Of a stretch of 64,000 bases of DNA, positions 1 through 57,877 are shown in pieces. The notes beneath the pieces were generated by a model. That model searched no databases. It saw nothing but the letters and a program-made list of their open reading frames with translations, and had not been told where the DNA came from. Every line of letters begins with the position of its first letter. The first letter of the stretch is position 1. Source of the DNA: Heptranchias perlo. Lineage: Eukaryota. Position numbers and translations under genes: made by a program. Location: the NCBI RefSeq assembly GCF_035084215.1, contig NC_090336.1, positions 39,060,001 to 39,124,000 on the forward strand. The letters run 5' to 3'.

Positions 1-345
1 TGATAGGGTTGATGTAGAGATGATGTTTCCACTTGTGGGGGAGACTAGAACAAGGGGCCATAAATATAAGATAGTCACTAATCAATCCAATAGGGAATTC
101 AGGAGAAACTTCTTTACCCAGAGAGTGGTTAGAATGTGGAACTGGCTACCAGAAAGGGTAATTGAGGCGACGAGCATAGATGCATTTAAGAGGAAGCTGG
201 ATAAATACATGAGGGAGAAAGGAATAGAAGGATATGCTGATAGGGTTAGATGAAGTCGGGAGGGAGGAGGCTCGTGCAGAGCATAAACACTGGCATGGAC
301 CTGTTGGGCCGAATGGCCTGTTACTGTGGTGTACATTCCATGAAT
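1..345 (+). mobile_element. CR1/HER1-type LINE 3' end (ORF2 C-terminus and 3' UTR)
   Basis: ORF 20-253 has the CR1 C-terminal motif TRGH-K...RRNFFTQRVVRMWNWLP...FKRKLD, followed by the 3' stem-loop 'gggccgaatggcct'. Confidence 0.9.
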
Positions 346-7851: not shown

Positions 7852-10452
7852 ATAAGAATAAAACTGGACGGACCACTAGGCACCGGACAGGATAACGGCA
7901 AACCAAGCCCAGTTGACCCTGCAAAGTCCTCCCCACGAACATCTGGGGACTTGTGCCAAAATTGGGAGAGCTGCAACAGCCTGACATAGCCATACTCACA
8001 GAATCATACCTTTCAGCTAATGTCCCAGACTCTTCCATCACCATCCCTGGGTAAGTCCTGTCCCACTGGCAGGACAGACTGACCAGAGGTGGCGGTACAG
8101 TGATATACAGTCAGGAGGGAGTGGCCCTGGGAGTCCTCAACAATGACTCTGGACCCCATGAAATCTCATGGCATCAGGTCGAACATGGGCAAGGAAACCT
8201 CCTGCTGATTACCACCTACCGTCCTCCCTCAGCTGATGAATCAGTCCTCCACCATGTTGAACACCACTTGGAGGAAGCACTGAGGGTAGCAAAGGCACAG
8301 AATGTACTCTGGGTGGGGGACTTCAATGTCCATCACCAAGAGTGGCTCGGTAGCACCATTACTGACCGAGCTGGCCGAGTCCTGAAGGACACAGCTGCCA
8401 GACTGGGCCTGGGGCAGGTGGTGAGCGAACCAACACGAGGGAAAAACTTACTTGACCTCGTCCTCACCAATCTACCTGTCGCAAATGCATCTGTCCATGA
8501 CAGTATTGGTAGGAGTGACCACCGCACAGTCCTCGTGGAGACGAAGTCCAGTCTTCGCACTGAGGATACGAGCCAACGTGTTGTATGGCACTACCACCGT
8601 GCTAAATGGGATAGATTCAGAACAGATCTAGCAGCTCAAAACTGGGCATCCATGAGGTGCTGTGGGCCATCAGCAGCAGCAGAATTGTATTCCAGCACAA
8701 TCTGTAGCCTCATGGCCCGGCATATTCCTCCCTCTACCATTACCAACAAGCCAGGGGATCAACCCTGGTTCAATGAGGAGTGTAGAAGAGCATGCCAGGA
8801 GCAGCACCAGGCGTACCTAAAAATGAGGTGCCAACCCAGTGAAGCTACAACAGAGGACTACATGCATGCTAAACAGCGGAAGCAACATGCTATAGACAGA
8901 GCCAAGTGATTCCACAACCAAGGGATCAGATAAAAGCTCTGCAGTCCTGCCACATCCAGTCGTGAATGGTGGTGGACAATTAAACAACTAACGGGAGGAG
9001 GAGGCTCTGTAAACATCCCCATCCTCAATGATGGCGGAGTCCAGCACGTGAGTGCAAAAGATAAGGCTGAAGTGTTTGCAACCATCTTCAGCCAGAAGTG
9101 CTGAGTGGATGATCCATCTCGGCCTCCTCCCGATATCCCAACCATCACAGAAGCCAGTCTTCAGCCAATTCGATTCACTCCACGTGCTATCAAGAAACGG
9201 CTGAGTGCACTGGATACAGCAAAGGCTATGGGCCCCGACAACATCCCGGCTGTAGTGCTGAAGACTCCTGTTCCAGAACTAGCCGTGCCTCTAGCCAAGC
9301 TGTTCCAGTACAGCTACAAAACTGGCATCTACCCGACAATGTGGAAAATTGCCCATGTATGTCCTGTCCACAAAAAGCAGGACAAATCCAATCCGGCCAA
9401 TTACCGCCCCATCAGTCTACTCTCAATCATCAACAAAGTGATGGAAGGTGTCGTCGACAGTGCTATCAAGCAGCACTTACTCACCAATAACCTGCTCACT
9501 GATGCTCAGTTTGGGTTCCGCCAGGACCACTCGGCTCCAGACCTCATTACAGACTTGGTCCAAACATGGACAAAAGAGCTGAATTCCAGAGGTGAGGTGA
9601 GAGTGACTGCCCTTGACATCAAGGCAGCATTTGACTGAGTGTGGCACCAAGGAGCCCTAGTAAAATTGAAGTCAATGGGAATCAGGGAGAAAACTCTCCA
9701 GTGGCTGGAGTCATACCTAGCACAAAGGAAGATGGTAATGGTTGTTGGAGGCCAATCATCTCAGCCCCAGGGCATTGCTGCAGGAGTTCCTCAGGGCAGT
9801 GTCCTCGGCCCAACCATCTTCAGCTGCTTCATCAATGACCTTCCCTCCATCATCAGGTCAGAAAAGGGATGTTTGCTGATGATTGCACAGTGTTCAGTTC
9901 CATTCGCAACCCCTCAAATAATGAAGCAGTCCGAGCCCGCCTGCAGCAAGACCTGGACAACATCCAGGCGTGGGCTGATAAGTGGCAAGTAACATTCGCG
10001 CCAGACAAGTGCCAGGCAATGACCATCTCCAACAAGAGAGAGTCTAACCACCTCCCCTTGACATTCAATGGCATTACCATCGCTGAAGTGGCTGCAGTGT
10101 GTACCATCCACAGGATGCACTGCAGCAACTCGCCAAGGCTTCTTCGTCAGCACCTCCCAAACCTGCGACCTCCACTACCTAGAAGGACAAGAGCAGCAGG
10201 TACATGGGAACAACACCAACTGCACGTTCCCCTCCAAGTCACACACCACCCCGACTTGGAAATATATCGCCGTTCCTTCATCGTCGCTGGATCAAAATCC
10301 TGGAACTTCCTTGCTAACAGCACTGTGGGAGAACCTTCACCACACGGACTGCAGCGGTTCAAGAAGGCGGCTCACCACCACCTTCTCAAGGGCAATTAGG
10401 GATGGGCAATAAATGCTGGCCTTGCCAGCGACGCCCACATCCCGTGAGCGAA
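7852..10452 (+). mobile_element. APE-RT LINE (CR1-clade-like, family distinct from HER1), near full length, with stops, frameshifts and an internal 3' deletion
   Basis: Endonuclease motifs TYRPP, WVGDFN, LDLVLTN and SDH (8100-8909); RT motifs KAMGPDNIP, NYRPISLL, QFGFR, ALDIKAAFD, GVPQGSVLGP and FADD. The 3' UTR ends 'gggatgggcaataaatgctggccttgccagcgacgcccacatccc'. Similar flanks 'tttaaaaaa..gtc' on both sides suggest a TSD. Confidence 0.93.
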
Positions 10453-10468
10453 TTTTAAAAAATGTCCC

Positions 10469-10610
10469 AGGCCTCTTTGCTATTCGATGAAGAGCAGAGA
10501 GCTCTCTGTGTCCCATCCAATATTCTTCTCTCAAATAACACCACCCAAAACACGTTACTTGTTTATTCATCGCATTTACTGTTTGTGGGACCTTGCTGCA
10601 AATTACCTAG
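10469..10610 (+). mobile_element. Deu-domain SINE, continuation of 7107-7296
   Basis: 'ctattcgatgaagagcag...tgtcccatccaatatt...ctgtttgtgggaccttgctg' is colinear with the intact minus-strand copy at 19935-20293. Confidence 0.7.
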
Positions 10611-11423
10611 CTTTCAAGAGAACAGCGTCCACGACACCACACAACCCTGCCACGGTAACCTCTGCAAGACATGCCAGATCATCGACACAGATACCACCAT
10701 CACACGAGAGGACACCACCCACCAGGTGCATGGTTCATACTCCTGTGACTCGGCCAACGTTGTCTACCTCATACGTTGCAGGAAAGGATGCCCCAGAGCA
10801 TGGTACATTGGCGAGACCATGCAGACGCTGCGACAACGGATGAACGGACACCGCGCAACAATCGCCAGACAGGAGGGTTCCCTCCCAGTCGGGGAACACT
10901 TCAGCAGTCAGGGACATTCATCCACCGACCTTCGGGTAAGCGTACTCCAAGGCGGCCTTCGAGACACACGACAATGCAAAATCGTCGAGCAGAAATTGAT
11001 AGCCAAGTTCCGCACCCATGAGGACGGCCTCAACCGGGATCTTGGGTTCATGTCACGCTACACGTTACCCCACCAGCGAACAAATGTTATCTGTTTTTAA
11101 TATAACGGGTCAGTTGCTGTCTTTTCTATGTTTCTACCTCTCTATCTCTGTTTTTTTTTGTTTGTTGTTTTTTTTTTGGTGATTTGTATATTCTGAGACC
11201 TTGCAGGTAACACCTGTCTGTCTGCACACTGATTGCCTTGGCAACGGGCAGTTGAAAAAACTGTCTGTAATCACCAAGCATTGTTCTGTGAATTATAAAT
11301 GCGATTTCATTTCGAGGATTTCATTTCGTTCACCTGAGGAAGGAGGAAGCCTCCGAAAGCTTGTGAATTTAAAATAAAATTGCTGGACTATAACTTGGTG
11401 TTGTAAAATTGTTTATAATTGTT
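10611..11423 (+). mobile_element. Penelope-like element 3' fragment: GIY-YIG endonuclease plus terminal repeat with hammerhead
   Basis: Translation shows C-x4-CKTC, then VVYLIRC-x2-GC...WYIGET...LRQRMNGH...VGEHF...GH...E-KLI-KF-T...GLN, typical of PLE GIY-YIG domains. Stop at 11100, then a 3' UTR with a hammerhead core. Confidence 0.92.
11329..11367 (+). ncRNA. Minimal type I hammerhead ribozyme (PLE-associated)
   Basis: ttcac-CTGAGGA-a-ggagg(aag)cctcc-GAAA-gctt-gtgaa: stem I ttcac/gtgaa, stem II ggagg/cctcc, intact core, palindromic AAGCTT in place of stem III. Confidence 0.8.
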
Positions 11424-16671: not shown

Positions 16672-17140
16672 ATTATAATCCAGCTTTAGAGAGGAAAAAA
16701 AAACACAACAACTATAGTCCAGCTTTAGAGAGAGAGAAAACCACACAAACTTATAGTCCAGCTTTAGAGAGAGAAAACTACACAAACTATAGCCCAGCTT
16801 TAGAGGGAGAGAAAACTACACAAACTATAGCCCAGCTTTAGAGAGAGAGAAAACCACACAAACTATAGCCCAGCTTTAGAGAGAGAGAAAACTACACAAA
16901 CTATAGCCCAGCTTTAGAGAGAGAGAAAACCACACAAACTATAGCCCAGGTTTAGAACTACCTCACAAACTATGCTCTGGTTTTAAAGAAAGAGAGAGAG
17001 AATTGCACTAACTATAGTCCAGCTTTAGGGAGAGAACCTCAGTGGCTATTGTCCAATTTTAGGAGGAGAGAACTGAATTAACTGCTGTCCAGCTTTATTG
17101 AGACAAGAAAACTGACACACCCTTCTCCAGTTTTAGAGAG
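16672..17140 (+). repeat. Minisatellite, ~36-40 bp unit, about 12 copies decaying toward the 3' side
   Basis: Unit 'aactatagcccagctttagagagagagaaaac(c/t)acaca'. Confidence 0.95.
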
Positions 17141-24110: not shown

Positions 24111-25566
24111 TCTAAAAATTTAAGAGGGAAAAAAATTTCTGCCACTAATACGAACTTGAACTAGGGTAAATTCCTCAATTATAAATAATGTGAATTTACA
24201 CCATCTAACGTGAGCTCTTAATAAATGCCCCTTGTGATTATGATCTTTTTTGACAATTTGGCAAGTAAATGTGATCATATAGGGTGTGTCTAACTTGCGC
24301 TGTGTTCAGTATTGTTTTTATCTTAATCTAGTGCTCCCTCGGACTACCAGTATTTTTGTAATTTACTGTTTAGTTTGGTACATAAATTAACAGCGATTTC
24401 TGCTGCTAAAGAGTAAATCGTGCGATTTTTTGAAAAACGGATGGTTTTGTGCCAGCCATTGTTCGTAACTTCTTTTCGGATAAAAGTCCCCGATGTTCAA
24501 AACCTCCTTCGTTCTATTCCTAGTTACAGATCTCCAATCACTCATCATGTCACAGTAATTGCAGCAGAATGCTGGTGTCCATTTAGGCTGCTGTTAGCTC
24601 TAATAGTTATACATGCTTGCATTGCCCAGAGCTACAGCACTAATGAATTTGGGCTGCCAACTAGGAGGATGGGGGGGTTCCCATTTCAGTTTTGACTGAC
24701 AATCTCACTTAGGCTTCTTGTAGTGGCTGAGTTTTGCTCTGTAGCTGGGGGACGGAGGTTATACTGTTCTTTTCCTGCACCGCTCAGCAGTGCCTTCTGT
24801 TGGATTTATTCGGGGAGTACTGCCTGGAAGTAAAACTCTATTGTTCGTTTTCTTTGTACTTGAGACAGTTTAGGATGACCAAATTTATTCTAGCAGTCTT
24901 TAGAGTTTGTGGACCATTGTATGAACTGGCCCTAAATGCAATCTAGTAGCATGAGTTCTACTTTATTTACCATTAGTCATTTAAAGATATGGATGATCAT
25001 GGCTGGATCAAAGTTCCCTCTTTATCAAAAAGAGATAGTATCAACAGCAGAGAAGATTAGGAAGACAGGAAAATTGTAACTGCAAAAAATAATCATCTGC
25101 AGAATATAAGGGATGTATTCCTAAAAGGCTACTCCAAATCTTTGTGAATCTAGACAATGGGCTATAAATTGGGCCACGTAGTGCCCGTTTTCCAGGTGTT
25201 ACGCAGCCTCCAAAGGACCCGGAATGCGCGCACATGCTTCTAGCGTGACGTGCGCCAGACGCCATCTTGGTAAAGGCGTTTGCACATGTGCAGATAAAGA
25301 ACGCCGGCCGCATGTAAAATAAGGAGAACATGCATTAGAATATGCAGTAGACGGCCTGAAGGACCCCCCCTCCCCCACCAGCGCTAATCAAAGAGATCAT
25401 GCAGGTGTTGCAGGTTGGTTGTTTCTGGCTGCTGATACATTTGTATGTGTTTGTTGAAGCTTCCTATACTTGGAGAAAGTTGTATTATATAGAGAGTGGT
25501 CTGGCAGGTCCTGCATTACTGTTGGTGGCATTTACAACAGTGTGCTGAACAAGGTTTCTGCCAACC

Positions 25567-26663
25567 ATGGGTGGCTTGCTAGTGCTCCCGCTAGGCATCG
25601 AACACGACTGGGAGCATGCAGAGAGGCCACGCAGAGCAGGTCAAGCCGCGAGGAGACGCAGGGCACTGAGCAGGAGGCCATATCCAATGAGGGCTTTCAG
25701 GGACCAATTCTCTTACCTCAACGTGACCGAAGATCAGTGCATCCAACAGCTGTGGTTCATGAAAGAGGTTGCGACACAACTGCAGCCTCAGAGTGGGGCA
25801 AAGACAGCATTGCCTGTGGCTGTGAAGGTAAACGTTGCACTGAACTTTTACGGCTCCAGATCCTTTCAGGCCGCTGATGGTGATATGCGCAATATCTCGT
25901 AGTTTGCAGTGCACTGCTGCATAAGGGCAGTCACCGAAGCACTGTACGAGCTGTGCAACAGATTCACAACGTTCCCGCTTGACCGAGAGAAGCAGAATGA
26001 GCGAGCACGAGGGTTTGCTCGCATTGTAGGCTTCCCCATGGTACAGGGTGCCATTGACTGTACGCACATTGCCATGTGTGCTCCACATCTCAACTCGGCC
26101 ATCTTTATGAACAGAAAGGGGTTCCACTCCCTCAATGTGCAGCTGGTGTGTGACCACATGCAGCGCATCATGGAGGTCAATGCCCGCTACCCTGGCAGCA
26201 ATCATGACGCCTTCATTCTGCAGCAGTCCAACGTCCCAGCATAGCAAGTCAAAGGCTGGCTACTGGGCGACACGGGCTAGCCCCTCATGAGGTAGCTCAT
26301 GACTCCAGTCAGGAACGCACGCACACGTACACAGCAGGCCTACAATGAGAGCCATGCGGCCACACGTAACGTCATCGAGCACACCATAGACATGTTAAAG
26401 AAACTTTCCTGCTGCCTGGACCGTTCTGGAGGAGCCCTGCAGTACTCAGCTGAATGGGTGTCAAGATTCGTCGTTGCATGCTGCATGACCTCGCCCTTAT
26501 GAGAGGACAGCCCGTGCTGCCACCTATCCAGCAAGACCCTGAGCCAGAGGAAGAGGAAGTGGAGGAAGAGACGGAGGAGGAAGTGGAGGATGAGGCAAGG
26601 TGGCAACAAGGTGCACAGACCCTGTCTGCCAGGGCTTTGTGTGCTCACCTTATTAATGAGTGA
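25567..26663 (+). pseudogene. Harbinger (HARBI1-like) DDE transposase pseudogene
   Basis: Motifs GFPMVQGAIDCTHIA, NRKGFHSLNVQLVCD, ARYPGSNHDAFIL, LLGD-G, YNESHAATRNVIEHT and ACC, plus an acidic tail; several in-frame stops. Confidence 0.92.
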
Positions 26664-26850
26664 TATCAGTAACCTCAACGACACTTCCCAACTCACCAAC
26701 AGTCCTACACTCCTCACCATTCCTCTCCCACATGACCATCAAATCGTCCTCCTTATGATTACACATTGCTTCCTCCCTCAGCTCATCGCATAAATAAAAA
26801 CCACCACCAACTGCAACTTCAAATACAAATTCATAAACTTACACATGAAA

Positions 26851-28720
26851 TCATGTATACAACATTACTCTGTTCACCCTTGTACATTCCCTCAGTGCCG
26901 TCTCTTCGTGTGTGCCTTTTCCTTTCCTAGTGTTCCTACGAGGTGCATCCCCAGTGGCTAGAGCATGGGTGGTGGAAGGCTGCTGGCTTTCAATTGAGGA
27001 GAGTGCAGATGGCCATGGAGGACGACCTCGAGCAGCTCTAGGCCGGGAGAGCCCAGCTTCAGACTGCACCATCTCAGCCTGGGCTGCAGCAGGGCACTGG
27101 CGGAGTGGCAGGGGTGGGAGCAGGAATGCTGTCATCCTGGGAAAGGACATCAGGTTCAACTGCCATGGTGCCACTGCCACTCTCCCGGGGCGGCGCCTCA
27201 GTAATTCTGGTGATCTGCTGGAGAACAGGTTGCTGGAGTGCTAACACACCCTGGAAGCCCCGTTTCACAGTGGTACCCAGAGCCACGATAGCAGCAGTCT
27301 GAGTCTGGAACGCAGTAGTCTGAGCTTCCAAAGCACCAGTCTGAGCTCCGAAGGAAGCATGCAGACTTTTGAAGTCATCTGTTTGTGCTGCAATGGAAGC
27401 TGAGACATTGGTCATCAGGCGCTGCATCATGGTGGGTTACACAGGTGTCCTGATAGAGGTGACCATATGGGAAAGGATGGGCTCCAAGCTCTGCGCAAAG
27501 CCCTGTGCCAAGTTGGAGCTGGACTCTTCCATGACCATTGGCATTGTGCGTAGGTTTTCTGGCAGGCTTTCCAGTGCCTCCAGCATTTGGCTGTGTACGC
27601 CCATCAGCCACCTTCTGTAGCCTGGCCCATTGAAGTCGTCACCTGACTCCTCGGCAGCAGTACTAGTGAGCGACCTCACCCTCCAGTGAGCTGGAACCTG
27701 TGGTATCCGCTCCCCCCACCCCGGCTCCTGCGCACTTGTGCCTGGTGTCTCACCATGTGCCGATCCCTCCTCTATCCTAGCCTCTACACTACGCACAGTT
27801 TCAGTATCTGAGCTGGTGGATGCAAGTCTCAGACCGAGTGACGGTGCGACTTCATTGTCAGTGTCTTCCTCCTCCTCCACCTCGGACGGTGCCGGCTCCA
27901 GGTCTTGGGTACCTGCAATGACAAAGGGACATGGGTTGAATTGTGGAGCGGGTGTGGAGAAAGAAAGACATGCGTGCTGACACCATCTGCAGCACGTGAG
28001 TCAGAAAAGATGAGGGAGATGTGGGAAACGAGGAAGAGGATCAGGTATGTCAAGACCTTCATTGTCAGGACCTCCAGAACCGCCAGTGGCCACGGCCACA
28101 GCGATGGCTCGCCCAATGATCCCCAGCACTGTCTCCTCCATGGGGGTGAGGACGTGTAGGCGTGCTTGTCCTCCATTCGTTCTTCCCTGCTGCTGGCTGT
28201 TGTGCGCCACCTTCTCCTGCAAGACAGAGGGAAGTGTGTCAGTGAGTGTCCTGCAAGATGTTTGGGTGATGTGCCTGTCATGGTTGAATAGCTGCCAGTG
28301 TGTGTGACCTGTGAGTTGAGGGCGTGTGGATTGCCAGAGTGGTACTATGTTAGGGTGAGATGCAGCATCCAAAGTGCAGCGTTGCGTACGGGTGGGTGAC
28401 GGGGAGATGTTGTGCATGGAGCAGTGGTACAGTTGGTAGGATGTGCCACTTGACAAACGCATTCACTCACCTTGACCATTCATGTCAAATCATTGAACTT
28501 TTTCTTGTACTGCATCCACGTGCGTGGTGCAATGCTCCTGTCGTTCACGTTCACCTCCAGGGCCACTTCCTCCCACTGCCTCCACAGCTGGTGTTTGGAG
28601 GGTCTCCTGCCAAGCTACGGATAAAGGACAGTCCTCTGTGCATCCACCTCCTCCACCAAGGTCTCCAGTGCATCATTGGAGAACCTCGGTGCACGCTCTC
28701 TTGCAGGTCCAGCCATTCCA
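26851..28720 (-). pseudogene. Harbinger Myb/SANT-like DNA-binding protein pseudogene, three exons
   Basis: Exon 1 (~28720-28471) reads APRFSNDALETLVEEV...WEEVA...RTWMQYKKKFNDLT and ends at a GTGAGT donor. Exon 2 starts at 28216 after ttgcAG (EKVAHN...TNGG...LTPMEE). Exon 3 starts at about 27912 (acidic, then coiled-coil-like). Confidence 0.8.
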
Positions 28721-30012
28721 CTTGTCTTCCTCCACCGATTGCATTGACAGTGCACCCCCCCCCCTTTAATAGGTGCAGGCTGCCTTTAAGTAGTGCTGGC
28801 CACACCCCATATTGGGCCCTCTGCTGGTGCGTGCAGGCAATCAGCAGCGCGGGTAGCACTGGCTGCACACAGAAATTGGGTAAATGACCAGGCAGCATGA
28901 ATCGCACATGCTGTCTGCATCGCAACGACCGGGCGCGGGTTAATCGCGCACTGCGACCCCCACGTCCGAATTCAAGGGTTATCGAATTTAACCCCCAATA
29001 TGTCGAAGTACTTCATTGGTATGTAAAGATTGTAAGGAACATAAAATGTGATTGTGATTCTGAGTTTGTAATCCGCTGTGATATTTAGTTCCCTTGTCCA
29101 TGGTAAAAAAAACTGGAGCATATTCCATTTATATCATGGTGTAAATGTTGTGTTGTCCCTCGAAAGCACTCACAATGCTAAGGCACATTTCTGTTGCAGA
29201 ATTGATTGATAGTTGCCACTTTGAACATCATCTATTGGAAGGTACTGACTATGGGAGAGACAGACGATGGGTTCATTAGAAAACTGCTGGAGGCTAAGAG
29301 TTCTGATCATTTTGAAGCTGTGTTTTCTAGCAAGGCTTTATTAAGCATATTACTGTCACTAAGCTGTCAAATTCTTTTACCCGAGTCACCTGTCCTACAA
29401 GGTAATGAAACTTCTGTGCCACAGTATTTGTTGCTGTATCAGTCACTTTACCTTTCACAGAACCTTGTGCTGGCTGGTGCACAGAGTATGAATAACAAAT
29501 TTTAGTAGAGGTGCAAGCAAACATTGAACTTTGTTTTATCGTCTTTTGGGGAAGGGAAGAATAATTAATAATTCAAATATGTTTTGTTAACCATAAATAA
29601 AAAATATTGAGAGAGCATATGAAACACGCAAGTTGCTATATGTTAGCTTCTATTTAAAGTTACCTAATTTAAAGTGAGGTAAAATTACTTGGAACTAGGT
29701 TGGCTTAAGACAAACGAATTGTATGGCACAAATTATGTGATTGTGCCTGTGATTGTAACCATACTGGGACTGCTGTTCTTGAAGCATTAGCCTACCTGCA
29801 CCCAAACAAATTAACATTGTACCATAATGCAAGGCTAACTTAATTACCTATTTTAGTGGTGCTTCTGCTGCATAGATGCATAGAGCAAGATATAGAGGGA
29901 GGATTTCATTAGCCATGTATAAATGTCTGGTGTACAATGCCACCATTTTATTTTTTGCATACCATGGACAACAATGTCTTTGTTGAAAAAACTGGCCACT
30001 GCTGACCAAGTT

Positions 30013-30227
30013 ACAAATGTAAGGAATCTTACAACACCAGGTTATAGTCCAACAATTTTATTTTAAAATCACAAGCTTTCGGAGATTATCCCCTTCGTCA
30101 GGTGAATCACGAAGGGGATAATCTCCGAAAGCTTGTGATTTTAAAATAAAATTGTTGGACTATAACCTGGTGTTGTAAGATTCCTTACATTTGTCCACCC
30201 CAGTCCATCACCGGCATCTCCACATCA
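30013..30227. mobile_element. PLE-derived fold-back element with hammerhead (family A, copy 1)
   Basis: Perfect 86-bp inverted arms 30013-30098 / 30109-30194, 10-nt spacer, tail ccaccccagtccatcaccggcatctccacatca, TSD tgaccaagttaca (30003-30015, 30228-30240). Confidence 0.9.
30069..30105 (-). ncRNA. Minimal hammerhead ribozyme in fold-back copy 1
   Basis: Minus strand: tcac-CTGACGA-a-gggga(taa)tctcc-GAAA-gctt-gtga; core intact. Confidence 0.75.
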
Positions 30228-31600
30228 TGACCAAGTTACAGAGAGGGTTGTAGTTAAAGCTAGCCCTCTAACAAAGAGAGGACCACCCAGGAATAAACCT
30301 TTACATTTTTAGAATGGGCCTCCTTCCGTTCCAAATGGCCCCCCTCAGTGACTAAAATGCTACTCAGGCACTCCAGTCAAATTAGGGGATGCCCCCTAAT
30401 TCAAATAACTTATTAAACCTTATGAGCCTTCCACACGTTTAATGTACAGGCTCCCAGCACAAGGACCGCATTGAGGCTCTAGGTGAATCGGGCATAGAGT
30501 ATGCCTCAGTGCCCAATAATACATGGTGCCTGTCATCGTATTATCCACCGCTATTTATACTGACTAAATAAGGAACAAAATGGGACTTTGGAACTAATTG
30601 CTTCTATTAGAATTTTTCCCAGAATTTGTTAACATCAGTATTGCCTGAAAATGAACTTGAATCTCGTCATCAGGATTTTTTTCCCCTTATGTAGGCCAGG
30701 AATACTAACACCAATTGTAGCAGTGCTACCACTGAGATCAGATAACCCAGCACAAGCTGGGGACTGAACATGGGACTATCCCAGTCTATATAGCTTACTT
30801 CCACACTAGTCAGTTCACTTACCAATGTAGCTAGTGGAAAAACACAGAGCTGTTTTTTGATAAATGGTTTGCATGATATCAATGGTAATCACTTAGCAAC
30901 TACAACAACTTCCAACATGAATAGTACACAAGTATATTGTCATTGTGCAGCACGCAGACTAAAAATGACAATGGAGCAACATTCAAAAACCTGCAGAGAT
31001 AAATCACATGACATTCCAAAACATGTCTGTCATAGCCTCTGAATACATCCACAGTACCAAGTCTACTCAAGATTTACAAAAATACTGAATAACAACCGCT
31101 GTATAAACTTTATTTAATTGCAGAAACCACTAAAAACAGTGTAAATGGATTGTACATTAGGAAACAATGGTTTAGAAAATAAACCACCTATTACGGCTGG
31201 CATAATTAAATTGCCACTTTTGGAATATACAGCCTTCATCATTCAGTCGTTGCATGATTTGCATCCTCTACCGAATTTACTAAGAAAGACTTATTAAAAA
31301 GTTTTGATTTGATAAAGAATATTTTTTTCTATGCTAGGTCGCATAAGAAGCTGACACTAAGCCGAGTCAAGAATATCATGGAGCAAAAAGAAAAAATAGT
31401 TCATGGTGGAGTTTAGCACTGCTAAATGAATATTCAAAACCACATTGAATATTACATTTTATATTTATAGCAGATTTTACCAGGAACAGCCAGGAGGAAT
31501 GAACATAAATTACAATGTGTTCAATCTGCAATTCTTTACAGCTGATGGACTTGGCATTTTTTTTAAGTTACAATTAAAAACACTAACAATTTGAGCTCTA

Positions 31601-32597: not shown

Positions 32598-35310
32598 GAT
32601 AAGAACATAAGAAATAGGAGCAGGAGTAGGCCAATTGGCCCCTCGAGCCTGCTCCTAACCTCAAATCTAAAGAACACAAGAAGTAGGAGGAGGACCCGGC
32701 CACTCAGCCCCTAGGCCCGCTCCGTCACCCACAGGGCATTGACCGATCCGAACTCAGCTTCATGTCCAATTTCCTGCCTGCTCCCCGTTACCCCTAATTC
32801 CCTTTACTTCGAGGAAACTGTCTATTTCTGTTTTAAATTTATTTAATGATGTAGCTTCCACAGCTTCCTGGGGCAGCAAATTCCACAGACCTACTACCCT
32901 CTGAGTGAAGAAGTTTCTCCTCATCTCAGTTTTGAAAGAGCAGCCCCTTATTCTAAGATTATGCCCCCTAGTTCTAGTTTCACCCATCCTTGGGAACATC
33001 CTTACCGCATCCACCCGATCAAGCCCCTTCACAATCTTATATGTTTCAATAAGATCGCCTCTCATTCTTCTGAACTCCAATGAGTAGAGTCCCAATCTAC
33101 TCAATCTCTCCTCATCCCCGAGATTAACCGAGTGAACCTTTGTACTGCCTCGAGAGCAAATATGTCTTTTCTTAAGTATGGACACCAAAACTGTATGCAG
33201 TATTCCAGGTGCAGTCTCACCAATACCTTATATAACTGCAGCAATACCTCCCTGTTTTTATATTCTATCCCCCAGCAATAAAAGCCAACATTCCATTGTC
33301 CGCCTTGATCACCTGCTGCACCTGCATACTAACGTTTTGATTTTCTTGCACTAGGACCCCCAGATCCCTTTGTACTGCAGTACTTTCCAGTTTCTCACCA
33401 TTAAGATAATAACTTGCTCTCTGATTTTTCCTGCCAAAGTGCATAACCTCACATTTTCCAATATTGTATTGCATCTGCCAAATCTCTGCCCACTCACCCA
33501 GCCTGTCTATATCCCCTTGTAGGTTTTTTATGTCCTCCTCACTCTCCACTTTCCCTCCCATCTTTGTATCAGTGGAATATATTTTTTTTGAATGTTGTAA
33601 AATAACTCTTTAAATGAACACAACTGCTCATGTATCATCTTACCCTTTAATCTATTTTCCCAGTCCACTTTAATCAATTCCGCTCTCATACCATCATAGT
33701 CTCCTTTATTCAAGCTCAGTACGCTTGTTTGAGAACCAACCTTCTCACCCTCTAATTGGATATGGAATTTAACCAGGTTATGGTCACTCATTCCAAGGGG
33801 ATCCTTAACTAGGACATTATTAATTAATCCTGGCTCATTACACAGGACCAGGTCCAAGGTTGCTTGCCCCCTTGTAGGATCAGTTACATACTGCTCAAGA
33901 AATCCATCTCTAATACACTCAATAAACTCTTCCTCAAGGCTGCCCTGCCCAATTTGATTTGTCCAGTTAATATGATAGTTAAAATCCCCCATAATTATAG
34001 CTGTTCCCTTATTACATGCCCCGACTATTTCCTGATTAATACTTCTTCCAGCAGAGTTGCAACTATTAGGAGGCCTAAATACTACGTCCACTAGTGTTTT
34101 TTTTCCCCTTATTATTCCTTATCTCTACCCAAACTCTTTCATTATCCTGATCCTTTGTCCCAATATCATGTCTCTGTATTACAGTGATTCCTTCCCTTAT
34201 TAACATAGCCACCCCACCTCCCCTTCCTTCATGCCTGTCCTTCCTGATTGTTAAATACCCTGGCATATTTAATTCCCAGTCGTTGTCACCCTGCAGCCAT
34301 GTTTCTGTAATGGCCACACGATCATACCCATACGTAGTTATTTGTGCCGTTAACTCGTCCATTTTGTTATGAATGCTACGTGCATTCAGATAAAGAACTT
34401 TCAAATATGTTTTGTGACACTTAGTTCCTGCTTTTTCCTTTTTTAACACTTTACCTTTTACTCCATACCTTCTGTCCTTTCCTGACACGCTTTCCTCTGT
34501 CACCTTGCTCAGGTTCCCAACCCCCTGCCACTTTAGTTTAAACCCAGTGATACAGAAGCACAGTACATTAGTGATTCAGCACCCTGTCGTGGACTAAGAT
34601 TTAGGCTCATGCAAACAATTGACACAGATTTCTGATGATAACTATGGTGCTAGGGGTAGGGTCCACGCAAAGGAAACTTAACCATAGGGAGGGACGATTA
34701 GAGAAAGTGTCATCCTGCATTGCTTTTCCCCAGCTCTTGGCCTGTAATCAGCTGGGTTACAAAGTGTCACTAGCAAACACTCCTCCTAGGACAGCGGTCC
34801 CGGCCCTGCCCAGGTGCAGACCATCCGGTTTGTACTGGTCCCACCTCCCCCAGAACCGGTTCCAATGCCCCAGGAATTTGAATCCCTCCTCCTTGCACCA
34901 CTCCTCTAGCCACATATTCATTTGAAATATCCTCCTATTTCTACTCTGACTAGCACGTGGCACTGGTAGCAATCCTGAGATTGCTACCTTTGAGGTCCTA
35001 TTTTTCAATTTACCTCCTAACTCCCTATATTCTGCTTTGAGGACTTCATTCCCTTTTTTACCTATATCGTTGGTGCCTACATGCACCACGACAACTGGCT
35101 GTTCACCCTCCCCCTCCAAAATGTTCTGTAGCCACTCTGAGACGTCCTTGACCCTTGCACCAGGGAGGCAACACACCATCCTGGAGTCTCGGTTGCGGCC
35201 GCAGAAACGCCTGTCTATTCCCCTTACAATTGAGTCCCCTATCACTATAGCTCTTCCACTTTTTTTCCTCCCAGCCTGTGCAGCAGAGCCACCCATGGTG
35301 CCAGGAAGTT
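32598..35310 (-). mobile_element. CR1/HER1 LINE with ORF1 esterase, endonuclease and RT C-terminus; internally deleted
   Basis: ORF1 SGNH esterase (IVIGDSIVRG, CLPGARV, VHVGTND, DGLHL; 34772-35296), endonuclease (YLNARSI, AITETWL, IMGDFN, SDHN) and RT C-terminus. The RT core is missing at a junction near 33571. Confidence 0.93.
34547..34771 (+). repeat. 225-bp copy of 36139-36363 inserted in CR1 ORF1
   Basis: Appears identical to 36139-36363 (gtgatacagaagc...aaagtgtcact); ORFs 34635 and 36227 share the same translation. Confidence 0.92.
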
Positions 35311-36138
35311 GATAGCAGTGGAATGGATAATTGGCTTAGTATACCATGCCAGGGAGGGAGAAAACTCAGAATTTCCTTGACTGTCATACTCCCTGACTCA
35401 CTGTTGAAAAGTGTACATGTGTAAATGTTGGAGGTGACCAGATCTGTCTCAGGTGTGATGCACCACACAGTTGAATAGCCTGAAAATGCTCACTGTTATG
35501 GCCCTTTTGGTGAGGTAATAGGATGGCTGTCATGGAACTGTGCCAGCAAGTGCCCATGGAACTGTATGCCAGCAAGAAATAGTGTTTTCAGGAGAGGGGG
35601 AGATTAAAAAGAGAAAAAATGGAGGAAAATGTATTATAATAAAATAACATATCAAGCAGGATATGTTCCAAAACATGGTTCACATGCTGATATTTTTTTA
35701 GCATATTCCGGCCCACTATGTGTTGCTTCACCTGAGTTCTCCTTCTGTAGAGACCATTTACCTACTAATAATATTAAAATTACTCCAAATTTAAACAATA
35801 TTAAATGGTATACCTATGTAATTGAACAGAATTTGAAAATATAATTTATTTAGCATCCTAAAACCAAATACAGTGTTTGATTGAAATAACATAAGGAGTT
35901 GCATGATGTTTAAGGTTTAAAGACATAGTATAACCAGGTATTTGTATAGGCTGTCATATGCTCCTTAACATTGTTAACTTTTTAGATTTGTGGTTATGTC
36001 CTTGACAAAATTGCTTAGATTTTCTAGAAATAAGAGGTGGAAGAAAAACTGTAATTCTGCACCATTTTCCCTGAGAAATGATTTCAGAATTAAAATTGTT
36101 TGTTTTTGCTTATCGGCGATATTAAAGAAACATTCATT

Positions 36139-36363
36139 GTGATACAGAAGCACAGTACATTAGTGATTCAGCACCCTGTCGTGGACTAAGATTTAGGCTC
36201 ATGCAAACAATTGACACAGATTTCTGATGATAACTATGGTGCTAGGGGTAGGGTCCACGCAAAGGAAACTTAACCATAGGGAGGGACGATTAGAGAAAGT
36301 GTCATCCTGCATTGCTTTTCCCCAGCTCTTGGCCTGTAATCAGCTGGGTTACAAAGTGTCACT
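36139..36363 (+). repeat. Likely donor of the 225-bp duplication
   Basis: Same sequence as 34547-34771, here embedded in unique-looking DNA. Confidence 0.9.
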
Positions 36364-49149: not shown

Positions 49150-49955
49150 ATGAATTACATACAAGGTACAGCACAGAAGCAGGCCATTCAGCCCAACCGG
49201 TCCATGCCAGTGTTTATGCTCCACACGGTCCTCCTCCCTCCCTACTTCATCTAACCCTATTGGTATATTCGTCTATTCCTTTCTCCCTCGTGTTCATCTA
49301 GCTTCCCCTTAAATGCATCTATGCTAGTCGCCTCAACTACTCCTTGTGGTAGCCAGTTCTAGATTCTAACCAGTCTCTGGGTAAAGAAGTTTCTCCTGAA
49401 TTCCCTATTGGATTTATTAGTGACTGTCTCATATTTATGCCCCTAGTTCTGGTCTCCCCGCAAGTGGAAACATCTTCTTCATGTCTACCCTGTCAAACCC
49501 TTTCATAATCTTAAAGACTTCCATCAGGTTACCCCTTAGTCTTCTCTTTTCTAGAGAAAAGAGACCCAGCCTGCTCAATTATTCCTGATAGGTATAACCT
49601 CTCAGTTCTGGTATCATTCTAGTAAATCCTTTTTGCACCTTCTCCAGTGCCTCTATATCCTTTTTAGAATATGGAGATCAGAACTGTTCACAGTACTGCA
49701 AGTGTGATCTAACCAAAATGTTGGCCAGGGGCTGCAGAAGGTAACCTGAGACGTCAGCTGCTGATACAGAGGCAGGAACGACTTTTGAACTAAAGTAACC
49801 TGAGTTCAGTCCTGACCTGGCTGGCTGAAACCGGTGCCGGTGACCTCCGGTCAACAAAGGTTCTATACAAGTTTAACATAACTTCTCTGCTTTTCAATTC
49901 TATCCCTCTAGAAATGAACCTCCGTGCTTGGTTTGCTTTTTTTATGGCCCTATTA
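49150..49955 (-). mobile_element. CR1 3' fragment interrupted by a 138-bp insertion
   Basis: Reverse complement of the family at 1-345 and its upstream coding region; interrupted at 49719-49856. Confidence 0.88.
49719..49856. mobile_element. 138-bp TG...CA insertion with short terminal inverted repeats
   Basis: Ends tgttggcc / ggtcaaca; splits the CR1 sequence 'ctaaccaa|ggttctatacaag'. Confidence 0.5.
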
Positions 49956-53095: not shown

Positions 53096-53697
53096 AAAAA
53101 ACATAAGACAGAAGAACATAAGAAATAAGAGCAGGAGTAGGCCATCTGGCCCCCCGAGCCTGCTCCGCGATTCAATAAGGTCATGGCTGATCTTCTACCT
53201 CAACACCATTTTCCTGCACCATCCCCATATCCCTCGATGCCTTTAATATCTAGAAATCTATCGATCTCTGTTTTGAATGTACTCAATCACTGAGCCTCCA
53301 CAGCCCTCTGGGGTAGAGAATTCCAAAGATTCACCACTCTCTGAGTGAAGAAGTTTCTCCTCAGCTCAGTCCTCAATGGCCTACCCCCTATTCTGAGACT
53401 GTGACCCCTGGTTCTAGACTCCCTAGCTAGAGGAAACATCCTCCCTGCAACTATCCTGTTGAACCCTGTAAGAATTTTGTATGTTTCAATGAGGTCACCT
53501 CTCGTTCTTCTAAACTCTAAAGAATACAGGCCTATTCCACTCAATCTCTCCTCATACAACAGTCGCGCCATCCCAGGAATCAGTCTGGTGAACCTTTGTT
53601 GCACTCCCTCTATGGCAAGTACATCCTTTCTTAGGAATGGAGACCAAAATTGTACACAATACTCCAGGTGCGGTCTCACCAAGGCCCTATATAATTG

Positions 53698-53910
53698 CAA
53701 ATGTAAGGAATCTTACAACACCAGGTTATAGTCCAACAGTTTTATTTGAAAATCACAAGCTTTCGGAGGCTTTCTCCTTAGTCAGGTGAATGAAGGAGAA
53801 AGCCTCCGAATCTTGTGATTTTCAAATAAAACTGTTGGGCTATAACCTGGTGTTGTAAGATTCCTTACATTTGTATTCCCCAGTCCATCACCGGCATCTC
53901 CACATCATGG
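53698..53910. mobile_element. PLE-derived fold-back element (family A, copy 2)
   Basis: Arms 53698-53779 / 53793-53873 with few mismatches, same tail, TSD ctatataattgca (53687-53699, 53911-53923). The minus-strand core is mutated (CTGACTA). Confidence 0.9.
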
Positions 53911-54067
53911 CTATATAATTGCAGTAAAACATATTTACTCCTGTACTCACATCCTCTTGGAATAATGGCCAACATACCATTTGCCTTCCTAATTGCTTGC
54001 TGCACCTGCATGTTAGCTTTCAGTGACTCATGTACATGGACACCCAGGTCCCTTTGAACATCAACAT

Positions 54068-55543: not shown

Positions 55544-57141
55544 ATCTCTCACCATTTAAAATATACTCTGCATTTCTGTTTTTCCTACCAAAGTGGATGA
55601 CTTCACATTTTTCCACATTATATTCCATCTGCCACATTCTTGCCCATTTACTTAGCCTGTCTTTATCCCCTTGAAGCCTCTTAATATCCCCTTGAAGTGT
55701 AATAATTGACGGAACAAATGGGTATAATCTCGTGACGTGATTGCAAGGTGACCAAGGTTGGGAGCTAAATATTCAGGGTTATTTAACATTTCGGAAGGAT
55801 AGGAAAAAAGGTAAAGGTGGTGGGGTAGCTCTGTTAATAAAGGATGAAATTGGTAAAATAGTGAGAAATGATCTTGGCTCAGAAGATCAAGATGTCGAAT
55901 CAATTTGGGTGGAGGTAAGAAATAGCAATGGAAAGAAATCACTGGTGGGAGTAGTATATAGGCCCCCTAACAGTAGCTACACTGTAGGGCAAAATATAAA
56001 TCAGGAAATAAGGGAGGCTTGTAAAAAAGGTAATGCAATAATCATGGGCGATTTTAACTTTCACATAGATTGGACAAATCAAATTGGTAAAAATAGCCAT
56101 GAGGAGGAGTTCATAGAGTGTTTAGGGACTGTTTCTTAGACCAATACGTCGGAGAAACAACCAGGGAACAGGCCATTTTGGATCTGGTAATGGGTAACGA
56201 AACAGGATTAATTAATGATCTCAAAGTAAAGGATCCCTTGGGAAGCAGTAATCATAACATGATGAATTTCACATCCAGTTTGAGAGCGAGGATCTTGGGT
56301 CTGAAACTACTGTATTAAACTTAAATAAGGTCAATTATAAAGGAATGAGGGCGGAATTGGCTACGGTAGACTGAGTAAAAAGATTAGATGGTATGATGGT
56401 GGATAAGCAGTGGCAAACATTTAAAAAGATATTTTATGACTCGCAACAAAAATATATCCCTGTGAGGAGGAAAGACTCTACAAAAAGGATGAACCAACCA
56501 TGGCTAACTAAGGAAGTCAAGGATGGTATCAGGTTAAAAGAAAAAGCATACAACATGGAAAAGATTACTGGTAAGACCGAAGATTGGGAAAACTTTAAAA
56601 ACCAGCAAAGAATGACTGAAAGAATACTAAAGAGGGAGAAAATAAATTATGAGAGTAAACCAGCAAGAAATATAAAAACTGACAGTAAAAACTTCTACAA
56701 GTACATAAAAAGGAAGTGGGTAGCTAAAGTAAACATTGGTCCCTTAGAGGATGAGACTGGGGAAATAATAATGGAAAACAAGGAAATGGCAGATGAATTG
56801 AACAGATATTTTGTATCTGTCTTCACAGTAGAAGACACTAATAATATACCAATAATAGTAGAAAATCAAGGGGCAAAGGGGAGGGAGGAACTAAAAACAA
56901 TCACTATCACTAGAGAAAAAGTACTAGGTAAACTAATGGGCCTAAAGGCTGACAAGTCCTCTGGACCTGATGGCTTGCATCCGAGGGTCTTAAAGGAAGT
57001 GGCTACAGAGATAGTGGATGCATTGGTTGTAATCTTCCAGAATTCACTGGATTCTGGAAAGGTCCCAGCGGATTGGAAAACCGCAAACGTAACACCCCTA
57101 TTCAAGAAGAGAGTGAGACAGAAAGCAGGTAACTATAGACC

Positions 57142-57349
57142 ATTGTAAACAATTTTACAACACCAAGTTATAGTCCAGCAATTTTATTTTTAATTCACAA
57201 GCTTTCGGAGGCTACCTCCTTCTTCACCTGAGGAAGGAGGTAGCCTCCGAAAGCTTGTGAATTAAAAATAAAATTGCTGGACTATAACTTGGTGTTGTAA
57301 AATTGTTTACAATTGTCAACCCCAGTCCATCACCGGCATCTCCACATCA
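57142..57349. mobile_element. PLE-derived fold-back element (family A, copy 3)
   Basis: Perfect 81-bp arms 57142-57222 / 57233-57313, 10-nt spacer, same tail, TSD taactatagacca (57130-57142, 57350-57362), which duplicates the CR1 NYRP codons. Confidence 0.92.
57223..57261 (+). ncRNA. Minimal hammerhead ribozyme in fold-back copy 3
   Basis: ttcac-CTGAGGA-a-ggagg(tag)cctcc-GAAA-gctt-gtgaa; differs from 11329-11367 by one loop base. Confidence 0.8.
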
Positions 57350-57877
57350 TAACTATAGACCAGTTAGCCTAACATCTGTCATTGGGAAAATGCTAGAATC
57401 CATTATTAAGAAAGTGGTAGCAGGACATTTGGAGACTCATAACACAATCAAGGAGAGTCAACATGGTTTTATGAAGGGGAAATCATGTCTGACAAATTTA
57501 TTAGAGTTCTTTGAGGAAGTAACAGGCAGGGTGGATAAAGGGGAACCAATGGATGCAGTATATTTGGATTTCCGAAAGGCATTCGATAAGGTGCCACATA
57601 AAAGGTTACTGCACAAGATAAGAGCTCATGGTGTTGGGGGTAATATACTGGCATGGATAGAGGATTGGCTAACTAACAGAAAACAAAGAGTCGGGATAAA
57701 AGGGTCATTTTCAAAATGGCAATCTGTAACTAGTGGGGTGCCGCAGGGATCAGTGCTGGGACCTCAACTATTTACAATATATATCAATGACTTGGATGAA
57801 GGAACAGAGTGTCTTGTGGCCAAATTTGCTGCTGATACAAAGATAGATGGAAAAGCAAGTTGCGATGAGGATACAAA

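What the first reader, a model, noticed from the sequence alone, without database searches (positions are those of the whole stretch)
30003..30240. Family of ~210-bp fold-back hammerhead elements with constant 13-bp TSDs (copies at 30.0, 53.7 and 57.1 kb)
Seen: three independent insertions share one layout: TSD, left arm (81-86 bp), 10-13 nt spacer, right arm, a conserved non-palindromic tail (ccccagtccatcaccggcatctccacatcat), then TSD. The direct repeats are 13 bp in all three (tgaccaagttaca, ctatataattgca, taactatagacca), including 1-3 nt of microhomology with the element ends. Copies differ from each other, yet each copy's two arms match (perfectly in copies 1 and 3), so the palindrome is either remade at each insertion or fixed per subfamily. 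Established: Penelope-like elements carry minimal hammerheads in pseudo-LTRs that can be inverted, and non-autonomous hammerhead retroelements (retrozymes) exist. Inference: this is a protein-free, ribozyme-bearing hairpin retroelement, or a stereotyped abortive insertion product, mobilised by a PLE RT and GIY-YIG nuclease with a fixed staggered cut. I cannot tell whether this exact form is already catalogued.
Basis: partly seen in the sequence, partly recalled or inferred. Interest (0 to 1): 0.85.

Follow-up and report, generated by a model that had tools for sequence, protein, structure and literature searches.

The report
Shark Penelope retrotransposon end-only palindromes
These 210-base hairpins in a shark genome are two back-to-back copies of the end of a known kind of jumping gene, most likely gene-less by-products of its insertion reaction, useful mainly because they record how that reaction cuts and copies DNA.

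Summary
The three insertions are real: exact 13-bp direct repeats, near-perfect inverted arms and a one-sided 33-36-nt tail. It is the 3' end of a 5'-truncated Neptune-type Penelope-like element (PLE), whose GIY-YIG protein is 94% identical to a shark RT-endonuclease. The arms are therefore PLE pseudo-LTR ends. The layout (inverted pLTR + pLTR + tail + TSD) is the published PLE terminal structure without the ORF.

The 'spacer' is the hammerhead core of one arm, so each copy has at most one intact ribozyme: minus strand in copy 1, plus strand in copy 3, mutated in copy 2. Copy 3 groups with the coding PLE, not with the other hairpins, so the palindrome arose at least twice. It is not a retrozyme or MITE.

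Best model (inferred): both strands are nicked 13 nt apart, each nick primes a short cDNA from one of two RT start sites, and the cDNAs join at a 3-nt microhomology near the predicted RNA 5' end. A constant 13-bp stagger rests on n=3. No genome-wide, Dfam or Repbase check was possible.

The parts
30003..30015 (.). Copy 1 left TSD (13 bp; last 3 nt also match the element end)
30016..30107 (-). Copy 1 left arm: inverted PLE pLTR end, tail-less, the longer arm; carries the intact minimal hammerhead (30069-30106, core C3 at 30101)
30109..30194 (+). Copy 1 right arm: pLTR end truncated inside the hammerhead core (base 30108 is unassigned junction sequence)
30195..30227 (+). Copy 1 tail (33 nt, one side only)
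30228..30240 (.). Copy 1 right TSD
53687..53699 (.). Copy 2 left TSD, inside an antisense CR1-like LINE remnant; paralogous sites hold it once
53700..53791 (-). Copy 2 left arm (inverted, longer); hammerhead core position G8 is changed
53792..53874 (+). Copy 2 right arm, truncated in the core; 3 differences from the left arm
53875..53910 (+). Copy 2 tail (36 nt), ending in an ATG with A at -3 and G at +4 (putative PLE start codon; inferred, not shown)
53911..53923 (.). Copy 2 right TSD
57130..57142 (.). Copy 3 left TSD, inside a LINE reverse-transcriptase reading frame
57143..57222 (-). Copy 3 left arm (inverted, shorter, truncated in the core)
57223..57316 (+). Copy 3 right arm (longer) with intact minimal hammerhead 57223-57261; 96.8% identical to the PLE end at 11329-11422
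57317..57349 (+). Copy 3 tail (33 nt)
57350..57362 (.). Copy 3 right TSD
10598..11100 (+). 5'-truncated PLE ORF: CX4CxxC linker finger plus GIY-YIG endonuclease with two cysteines between the motifs (Neptune/Nematis-type); 139 of 148 aa identical to shark protein P0001 (RT + EN)
   Evidence: motif definitions from PMC8557442 passages
11294..11327 (+). Predicted promoter of the PLE: TATA box 11294-11299 and initiator-like heptamer 11321-11327 (+1 = 11323, 29 nt from the TATA box); prediction only
11329..11422 (+). PLE 3' end (pLTR) with intact minimal hammerhead (core C3 at 11334); no tail, no inverted partner, no TSD found; ends where the hairpins' tail-less arms end

Best explanation
The elements are ORF-less insertions made by a shark Neptune-type Penelope-like retrotransposon (PLE), remade from PLE RNA rather than copied from one hairpin master.

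Shown: both arms are the last ~85-95 nt of the PLE pseudo-LTR, placed head to head; one arm carries the PLE tail; the whole is flanked by a true target duplication.

Inferred mechanism (twin priming): (1) the PLE protein nicks both strands about 13 nt apart, leaving 3' overhangs; (2) each 3'-OH pairs by 1-3 nt with PLE RNA and primes a first-strand cDNA, one at the outer RT start site (arm with tail) and one at the inner site about 35 nt upstream (arm without tail); (3) both cDNAs end within about 20 nt of the predicted RNA 5' end, just upstream of the hammerhead; (4) the 3' end of one cDNA anneals to the other through a short inverted match (TTC at +3..+5 with GAA at +17..+19 of the predicted transcript), the flap is trimmed and the gaps are filled. 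The hammerhead is a passenger. The product is most likely dead on arrival.
For: PLE origin: copy-3 arm is 96.8% identical over 94 nt to the end of a GIY-YIG-coding fragment. That fragment's protein is 139/148 identical to shark RT+EN protein P0001.

Remade more than once: the arm tree splits PLE+copy 3 from copies 1+2 at 100/99 support; arms differ by 0-3 nt within copies and 6-15 between; the longer, core-bearing arm is the left one in copies 1 and 2 and the right one in copy 3.

Two start sites: all 4 tail-less ends (3 left arms and the PLE end) stop at the same place within a few nt, and all 3 tailed ends stop 33-36 nt further on. In vitro, the Anolis PLE protein cleaves and extends both strands, starts RT at two internal sites that delimit the tail, and is predicted to be a dimer (PMC11167929).

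Priming: 5 of 5 testable outer junctions share 1-3 nt with the template continuation (chance of all >=1 nt about 0.002).

In copies 1 and 2 the tail-less arm is the longer one, so the tail cannot have been copied from it by snap-back. A second RNA-templated cDNA is needed.

Stereotyped centre: long arms reach +6/+7 and short arms +15/+17 of a predicted start site 29 nt below a TATA box (such TATA+initiator pairs occur 9 times among 99 TATA sites in the window).
Against: n=3 hairpins from one 64-kb window; no genome-wide count.

Copies 1 and 2 share the same left-arm end and nearly the same right-arm start, as descent from one hairpin master would also give.

The centre microhomology is clean only in copy 2, and only if its master had TTC upstream as the 11.3-kb PLE does. 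Copy 1 has 1-3 unexplained bases and copy 3 lacks one base against that template.

The start site is a motif prediction found after the fact. The one PLE promoter mapped by reporter assays, in Drosophila virilis, is TATA-less and has an intron (PMC2377424 passages).

That the tail ends at the start codon could not be shown: no shark PLE N-terminus was found.

The in vitro data come from a Poseidon-clade element, not Neptune. The 11.3-kb PLE fragment has no TSD and no inverted arm, so not every insertion follows this route. The literature describes PLE TSDs as variable (8, 9 and 10 bp in Adineta, PMC3846280; PMC8557442).
Confidence: 0.6

Rival explanations
1. Same PLE origin and dead-end status, but the inverted arm is made by self-priming: one cDNA or an antisense RNA folds back and is copied, and the endonuclease resolves the intermediate, which leaves the one-sided tail.
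For: This is the published hypothesis for head-to-head PLE palindromes (PMC3846280), and the tail has been ascribed to EN-mediated resolution (PMC8557442). It predicts identical arms (0 of 80 differences in copies 1 and 3). It fits copy 3, where the tailed arm is the longer, and the small dyad at the centre of copy 1.
Against: In copies 1 and 2 the tail-less arm is the longer one, so snap-back of a sense-templated cDNA cannot supply the tail. The tail-less end also occurs as the plain 3' end of the 11.3-kb PLE fragment, as expected of an RT start site (PMC11167929). The antisense-template version was not testable here.
Confidence: 0.2
2. Read-through copies of a palindrome fixed at the 5' end of full-length master PLEs (inverted pLTR + pLTR + ORF). 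RT starts at the tail, crosses the hairpin and stops at its far end, so each subfamily has its own junction.
For: Full-length PLEs with this 5' structure exist (Pen2a, PMC3846280). Copies 1 and 2 have near-identical centre junctions. Three copies with three arm variants cannot separate 'per insertion' from 'per master'.
Against: It needs RT to cross an ~85-bp perfect RNA stem (predicted -142 to -149 kcal/mol for the whole elements) and to stop at the same base within 1 nt in 3 of 3 copies. No two copies share a junction.
Confidence: 0.1
3. A self-propagating non-autonomous hairpin retroelement (retrozyme-like) that uses its hammerhead and regenerates its palindrome at each cycle.
For: Three dispersed copies of near-equal length with true TSDs in 64 kb. 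pLTRs are sufficient in cis for mobilisation in trans (PMC3846280). Retrozymes derive from PLE pLTRs (10.64898/2026.07.22.740005). Dual minimal hammerheads on opposite strands 100-700 bp apart were noted in Schistosoma (PMC4209133).
Against: Only one core per element, on opposite strands in copies 1 and 3 and mutated in copy 2. Minimal hammerheads were inactive as monomers in vitro (PMC4209133). There is no tandem array. The predicted TATA box is not included in the elements. Copy 3 is closer to the coding PLE (3 of 80 differences) than to the other hairpins (12-15).
Confidence: 0.08
4. A DNA-transposon MITE or foldback element.
For: Short, non-coding, long inverted repeats, TSD.
Against: The arms are PLE ends. 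The inverted repeats are not terminal, since a 33-36-nt tail lies outside one arm, and the tail length varies between copies.
Confidence: 0.02

Closest known systems
EN+ Penelope-like element insertions with an inverted 5' pLTR and a 30-40-bp tail (Pen2a_Av of Adineta vaga; typical layout in Fig. 2 of PMC8557442; D. virilis Penelope with inverted termini)
   Same: Inverted, 5'-truncated pLTR directly beside a direct pLTR; asymmetric junction; tail on one side; TSD around the whole; hammerhead in the pLTR (PMC3846280, PMC8557442, PMC2377424).
   Different: No ORF at all between the TSDs: the insertion is only the palindrome and tail. TSD is 13 bp in 3 of 3, against 8-10 bp reported for Adineta. 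Breakpoints fall within about 12 nt of each other in all three.
Neptune/Nematis-type PLE (CX2-5CxxC linker + CCHH GIY-YIG, C-terminal EN)
   Same: The partner fragment at 10598-11422 has both motifs, and its relatives carry RT before EN.
   Different: Clade assigned by motif only; no RT tree was built. Microsatellite targeting, mentioned for Neptune (PMC8557442), is not seen: the three targets are complex sequence, two of them LINE remnants.
Poseidon PAc of Anolis (in vitro mechanism, PMC11167929)
   Same: Tail delimited by two RT start sites; both strands cut and extended; hammerhead dispensable for insertion.
   Different: PAc starts RT 111-118 nt inside the ORF and prefers an ATT motif. Here the tail seems to end at the start codon and 4 of 6 inferred nicks read CA^G.
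Non-LTR (animal) retrozymes
   Same: Small, non-coding, type I minimal hammerhead, pLTR-derived.
   Different: Retrozymes are head-to-tail repeats with a ribozyme in each unit. These are head-to-head, with one core at most.
L1 twin priming (recalled; seen only as a term in a search listing)
   Same: Inversion made by priming from both target nicks, with microhomology at the inversion point.
   Different: In L1 the second primer anneals internally on the same RNA and inverts its 5' part. Here both arms copy the same segment, which needs two templates or two passes.

Membership tests
EN+ Penelope-like element insertion (derived from) | Sequence is the pLTR of an element coding GIY-YIG endonuclease and RT | tested here: met
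   96.8% over 94 nt to the end of a GIY-YIG fragment; relatives carry RT+EN
EN+ Penelope-like element insertion (derived from) | Minimal type I hammerhead in the pLTR: CUGANGA, extra base before stem II, G10.1-C11.1 pair, palindromic loop 3 | tested here: met
   3 descriptor hits in the window against 1 in 20 shuffles; features from PMC4209133. 41 of 44 cells pair, one two-sided change, not above shuffles (220/500). Rfam found no hammerhead family at E<=1
EN+ Penelope-like element insertion (derived from) | Inverted 5'-truncated pLTR at the 5' side and a 30-40-bp tail at one end | tested here: met
   3 of 3 copies; tails 33-36 nt
EN+ Penelope-like element insertion (derived from) | Target-site duplication | tested here: met
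   13 nt in 3 of 3; empty paralogous sites for copy 2, frame continuity for copy 3
Autonomous PLE | ORF with RT and EN within the insertion | tested here: not met
   tblastn of three PLE proteins hits only 10477-11082 in the window
Neptune/Nematis clade (partner element) | CX2-5CxxC finger before a CCHH-type GIY-YIG | tested here: met
   definition
Neptune/Nematis clade (partner element) | RT phylogeny places it in the clade | not tested
Non-LTR retrozyme | Head-to-tail tandem units, each with a complete type I hammerhead | tested here: not met
   head-to-head, one core at most; none of 17 tandem-repeat rows covers a copy
Non-LTR retrozyme | Self-cleavage and circular RNA | not testable with these tools
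   no RNA data or bench assay
LTR retrozyme | Type III hammerhead in direct LTRs, 4-bp TSD | tested here: not met
   type I motif, inverted arms, 13-bp TSD; definition from 10.64898/2026.07.22.740005
MITE / foldback DNA element | Inverted repeats at both termini, related to a DNA transposon | tested here: not met
   tail lies outside one arm; arms are PLE ends
Catalogued Dfam/Repbase family | Match to a curated consensus | not testable with these tools
Self-propagating non-autonomous family | Copies form their own lineage and share one junction | tested here: inconclusive
   copy 3 groups with the coding PLE; copies 1 and 2 have similar but not identical junctions; n=3

The most novel reading that the evidence does not exclude
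These palindromes are abundant, complete records of a symmetric PLE integration reaction. A dimeric RT-endonuclease cuts a loosely dyad-symmetric site (C|TG-N9-CA|G in copy 1; CA^G at 4 of 6 inferred nicks) with a fixed 13-nt 3' stagger. It primes from both nicks at the two internal RT start sites next to the start codon, and both cDNAs run off the RNA 5' end like a retroviral strong-stop product. [quoted passage not shown]
Probability: 0.3. Interest if true: 0.7.

Novelty: new variant of a known kind. Interest (0 to 1): 0.4.

Why it matters
How PLEs, the sister group of telomerase, integrate is still open: the origin of the inverted pLTR is a hypothesis (PMC3846280) and the later steps are 'yet to be validated' (PMC11167929). 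Each of these elements holds both target junctions and the inversion point in about 240 bp. If three per 64 kb is typical, a shark genome holds a very large number of them (extrapolation, not measured). Tabulating them would give the stagger, the target motif and the order of synthesis, and would separate twin priming from self-priming. In practice they can be mistaken for MITEs or microRNA precursors: copy 1 scored against two Rfam miRNA models, far below threshold. As a new class of protein-free ribozyme retroelement the case is weak.

Tried and rejected
Rfam at E<=1: 3 matches, all generic miRNA-hairpin models below gathering score; no hammerhead family.

Scan of bacterial and archaeal genomes with a 20-nt arm motif: 2 hits, matching only over the 20-27-nt seed, taken as chance.

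Search for the shark PLE N-terminus, to see whether the tail ends at the start codon: the cluster look-up could not be made; 0 of 82 candidates; 4 hits among 2171 candidates, the query itself and three at 30-35% identity, none named as shark; no full-length protein above 65% identity among the best 150 representatives. The question stays open.

Hammerhead covariation on 4 sequences: one two-sided change, not above shuffles (220/500). It is not used as proof of selection.

TSD for the 11.3-kb PLE fragment: best repeats 7 nt, none at both junctions.

Further PLE coding pieces or older arm copies in the window: none convincing. The 38-nt tandem array at 16.7 kb gives only a 23-nt, E=0.04 match and was rejected as unrelated. 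The LINE RT remnants around copies 2 and 3 are hosts, not partners. No tRNA genes.

Ten literature searches listed no paper whose title or abstract describes ORF-less PLE palindromes in sharks; two shark-specific searches returned 0 papers. The library lacks most subscription papers and Repbase Reports. The two supplementary PDFs of PMC11167929 gave only figure labels; bioRxiv supplements were not visible and might list shark pLTR-derived families. Viral and metagenome contig collections stayed unchecked.
Full report
OBSERVATION. The three elements are present as described, at 30003-30240, 53687-53923 and 57130-57362. The longest exact repeat at their ends is 13 nt in 3 of 3; 42 of 200,000 random position pairs give such a repeat under a +-5 nt tolerance. 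The repeats are target duplications. Copy 2 sits in an antisense CR1-like LINE remnant, and 3 of 3 paralogues in the window that match both flanks carry the site once (2 in exact register, 1 off by a base). Copy 3 interrupts a LINE RT frame that reads ...KAGNYRP before and NYRPVSLTS... after the insertion. Copy 1 has no paralogue here. Over 80 shared nt, the arms differ by 0, 3 and 0 within copies and by 6-15 between copies. Tails are 33, 36 and 33 nt beyond the arm end.

WHAT THE ARMS ARE. A fourth arm lies at 11329-11422, 96.8% identical to the right arm of copy 3. It follows a 3' UTR and an ORF remnant with a weak Pfam GIY-YIG match (E=4e-4, below the curated cut-off). The remnant is 139/148 identical to a shark protein carrying RT followed by the endonuclease. 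All of the top named hits are sharks, so the window is shark DNA; I make no species call. The remnant has a CX4CxxC finger before a GIY-YIG with two internal cysteines, the Neptune/Nematis pattern (PMC8557442 passages); no RT tree was made. The arm is thus the PLE pseudo-LTR end. A profile search finds 7 arms in the window, these only, and PLE proteins hit no other place.

THE HAMMERHEAD. A descriptor for minimal type I hammerheads, written with the published features in mind, hits 3 places in the window against 1 in 20 shuffles: the PLE end, the right arm of copy 3 (plus strand) and the left arm of copy 1 (minus strand). All have the extra base before stem II, the G-C closing pair and the palindromic loop 3 described for PLE ribozymes (PMC4209133, results and discussion read). 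Copy 2's core is changed at G8. Pairing holds in 41 of 44 cells with one two-sided change, which is not above shuffles. Rfam finds no hammerhead family. Folding predicts one long hairpin for each element, which would sequester the ribozyme. In the Anolis PLE the ribozyme is not needed for insertion in vitro (PMC11167929, main text read). The motif is real, but here it is most likely a passenger.

MADE ONCE OR MANY TIMES? The arm tree separates PLE + copy 3 from copies 1 + 2 (100/99), and the longer arm is on the left in copies 1 and 2 but on the right in copy 3. The palindrome therefore arose at least twice. Copies 1 and 2 differ at 6 positions in both arms, which suggests a third origin. Against this, their centre junctions are nearly the same, which a shared master with later arm homogenisation would also give. 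Three copies cannot separate 'each insertion' from 'each master'.

MECHANISM (inferred). All 4 tail-less ends, including the plain 3' end of the coding fragment, stop at one place, and all 3 tailed ends stop 33-36 nt further. In vitro the Anolis PLE protein starts RT at two internal sites that delimit the tail, cuts and extends both strands, and models as a dimer. With 3' overhangs, the bottom-strand nick would prime the tailed arm and the top-strand nick the inverted arm. As priming predicts, 5 of 5 testable junctions share 1-3 nt with the template (about 0.002 by chance). The sixth could not be tested because the template beyond the tail is unknown. If those bases belong to the primer, the stagger is 13 in all three; if not, it could be 8-13.

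The inferred nicks read CA^G in 4 of 6 cases, and G follows the nick in 5 of 6 (0.002 raw, about 0.01 by my arithmetic after allowing for how TSD ends are defined; noticed after the fact). The CA may reflect primer pairing rather than nuclease preference.

At the centre, long arms reach +6/+7 and short arms +15/+17 of a predicted start site (TATA box at 11294, initiator A at 11323; 9 such pairs among 99 TATA sites). TTC at +3..+5 is complementary to GAA at +17..+19, a built-in joint. It fits copy 2 cleanly, copy 3 with one base missing and copy 1 with 1-3 extra bases. Snap-back of one cDNA can give copy 3 but not copies 1 and 2, whose longer arm lacks the tail. Copy 2's tail ends in an ATG in good context, and PLE tails lie at or near the ORF start in Drosophila and Adineta (PMC2377424 passages; PMC3846280 main text). 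If so, initiation at the 5' pLTR-ORF junction of an mRNA can only give a 100-135-nt cDNA, which would explain the uniform size. I could not confirm the ATG, and the promoter is a motif prediction.

COMPARISON. An inverted truncated pLTR next to the direct one, a one-sided 30-40-bp tail and a TSD are the typical PLE layout (PMC8557442, Fig. 2 legend and passages; PMC3846280, with 8-10-bp TSDs and palindromic junctions; PMC8969392 passage). Close pairs of minimal hammerheads on opposite strands were noted in Schistosoma (PMC4209133). The elements fail the defining tests for non-LTR retrozymes (tandem units, each with a ribozyme; 10.64898/2026.07.22.740005, parts 1-3 of 5 read), LTR retrozymes and MITEs. 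They work like the ends of a PLE insertion and are not autonomous members. Ten searches of the open library listed nothing that describes the ORF-less, fixed-size form in sharks. Dfam, Repbase and subscription papers were out of reach, so it may well be catalogued.

VERDICT. Real, PLE-derived beyond reasonable doubt, and probably a stereotyped by-product rather than a new self-spreading element. PLE origin about 0.98; twin priming 0.6; self-priming 0.2; master-fixed palindrome 0.1; self-propagating hairpin 0.08; MITE 0.02. It is a new variant of a known kind. A PLE specialist would recognise the layout, but the uniform junctions offer a cheap genome-wide test of an unsettled mechanism. Interest 0.4.

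Noticed in passing
window 10598-11422 (+): 5'-truncated Neptune-type PLE with no tail, no inverted arm and no TSD; its 5' junction lies in a different short sequence just after a LINE.
   Followed up: yes
window 11303-11328: A short tandem duplication just upstream of the hammerhead gives two initiator-like heptamers, 15 and 29 nt below the TATA box.
   Followed up: partly
window 34547-34771 and 36139-36363: Two exactly identical 225-nt direct repeats 1592 nt apart, overlapping the end of a GDSL-esterase ORF (CR1/L2 ORF1-like, 34757-35335 minus). Could be a recent local duplication, a very long target duplication or an assembly artefact.
   Followed up: partly
window 16680-16956: 38-nt minisatellite, 7.3 copies, with decayed copies on both sides; a weak 23-nt likeness to the arm (E=0.04) was judged chance.
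   Followed up: partly
window 7870-10460 and 54070-55545: Two copies (94-96% identical) of a LINE with AP-endonuclease and RT, both with stops; the first lacks about 315 nt that the second has.
   Followed up: no
window 55-345 and 49158-49443: Two inverted, 86-90% identical copies of a LINE 3' end or SINE about 49 kb apart.
   Followed up: no
window 25400-29000: GC-richer stretch with several overlapping ORFs of 100-222 aa; none of the four tested matched Pfam.
   Followed up: partly
proteins P0008, P0009, P0014, P0027: Several shark gene models named as host genes (cytochrome P450, XRCC5, septin 5a, PPP1R12A-like isoforms) contain this PLE's endonuclease segment at 73-96% identity; these are either exonised pieces or annotation errors.
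   Followed up: no
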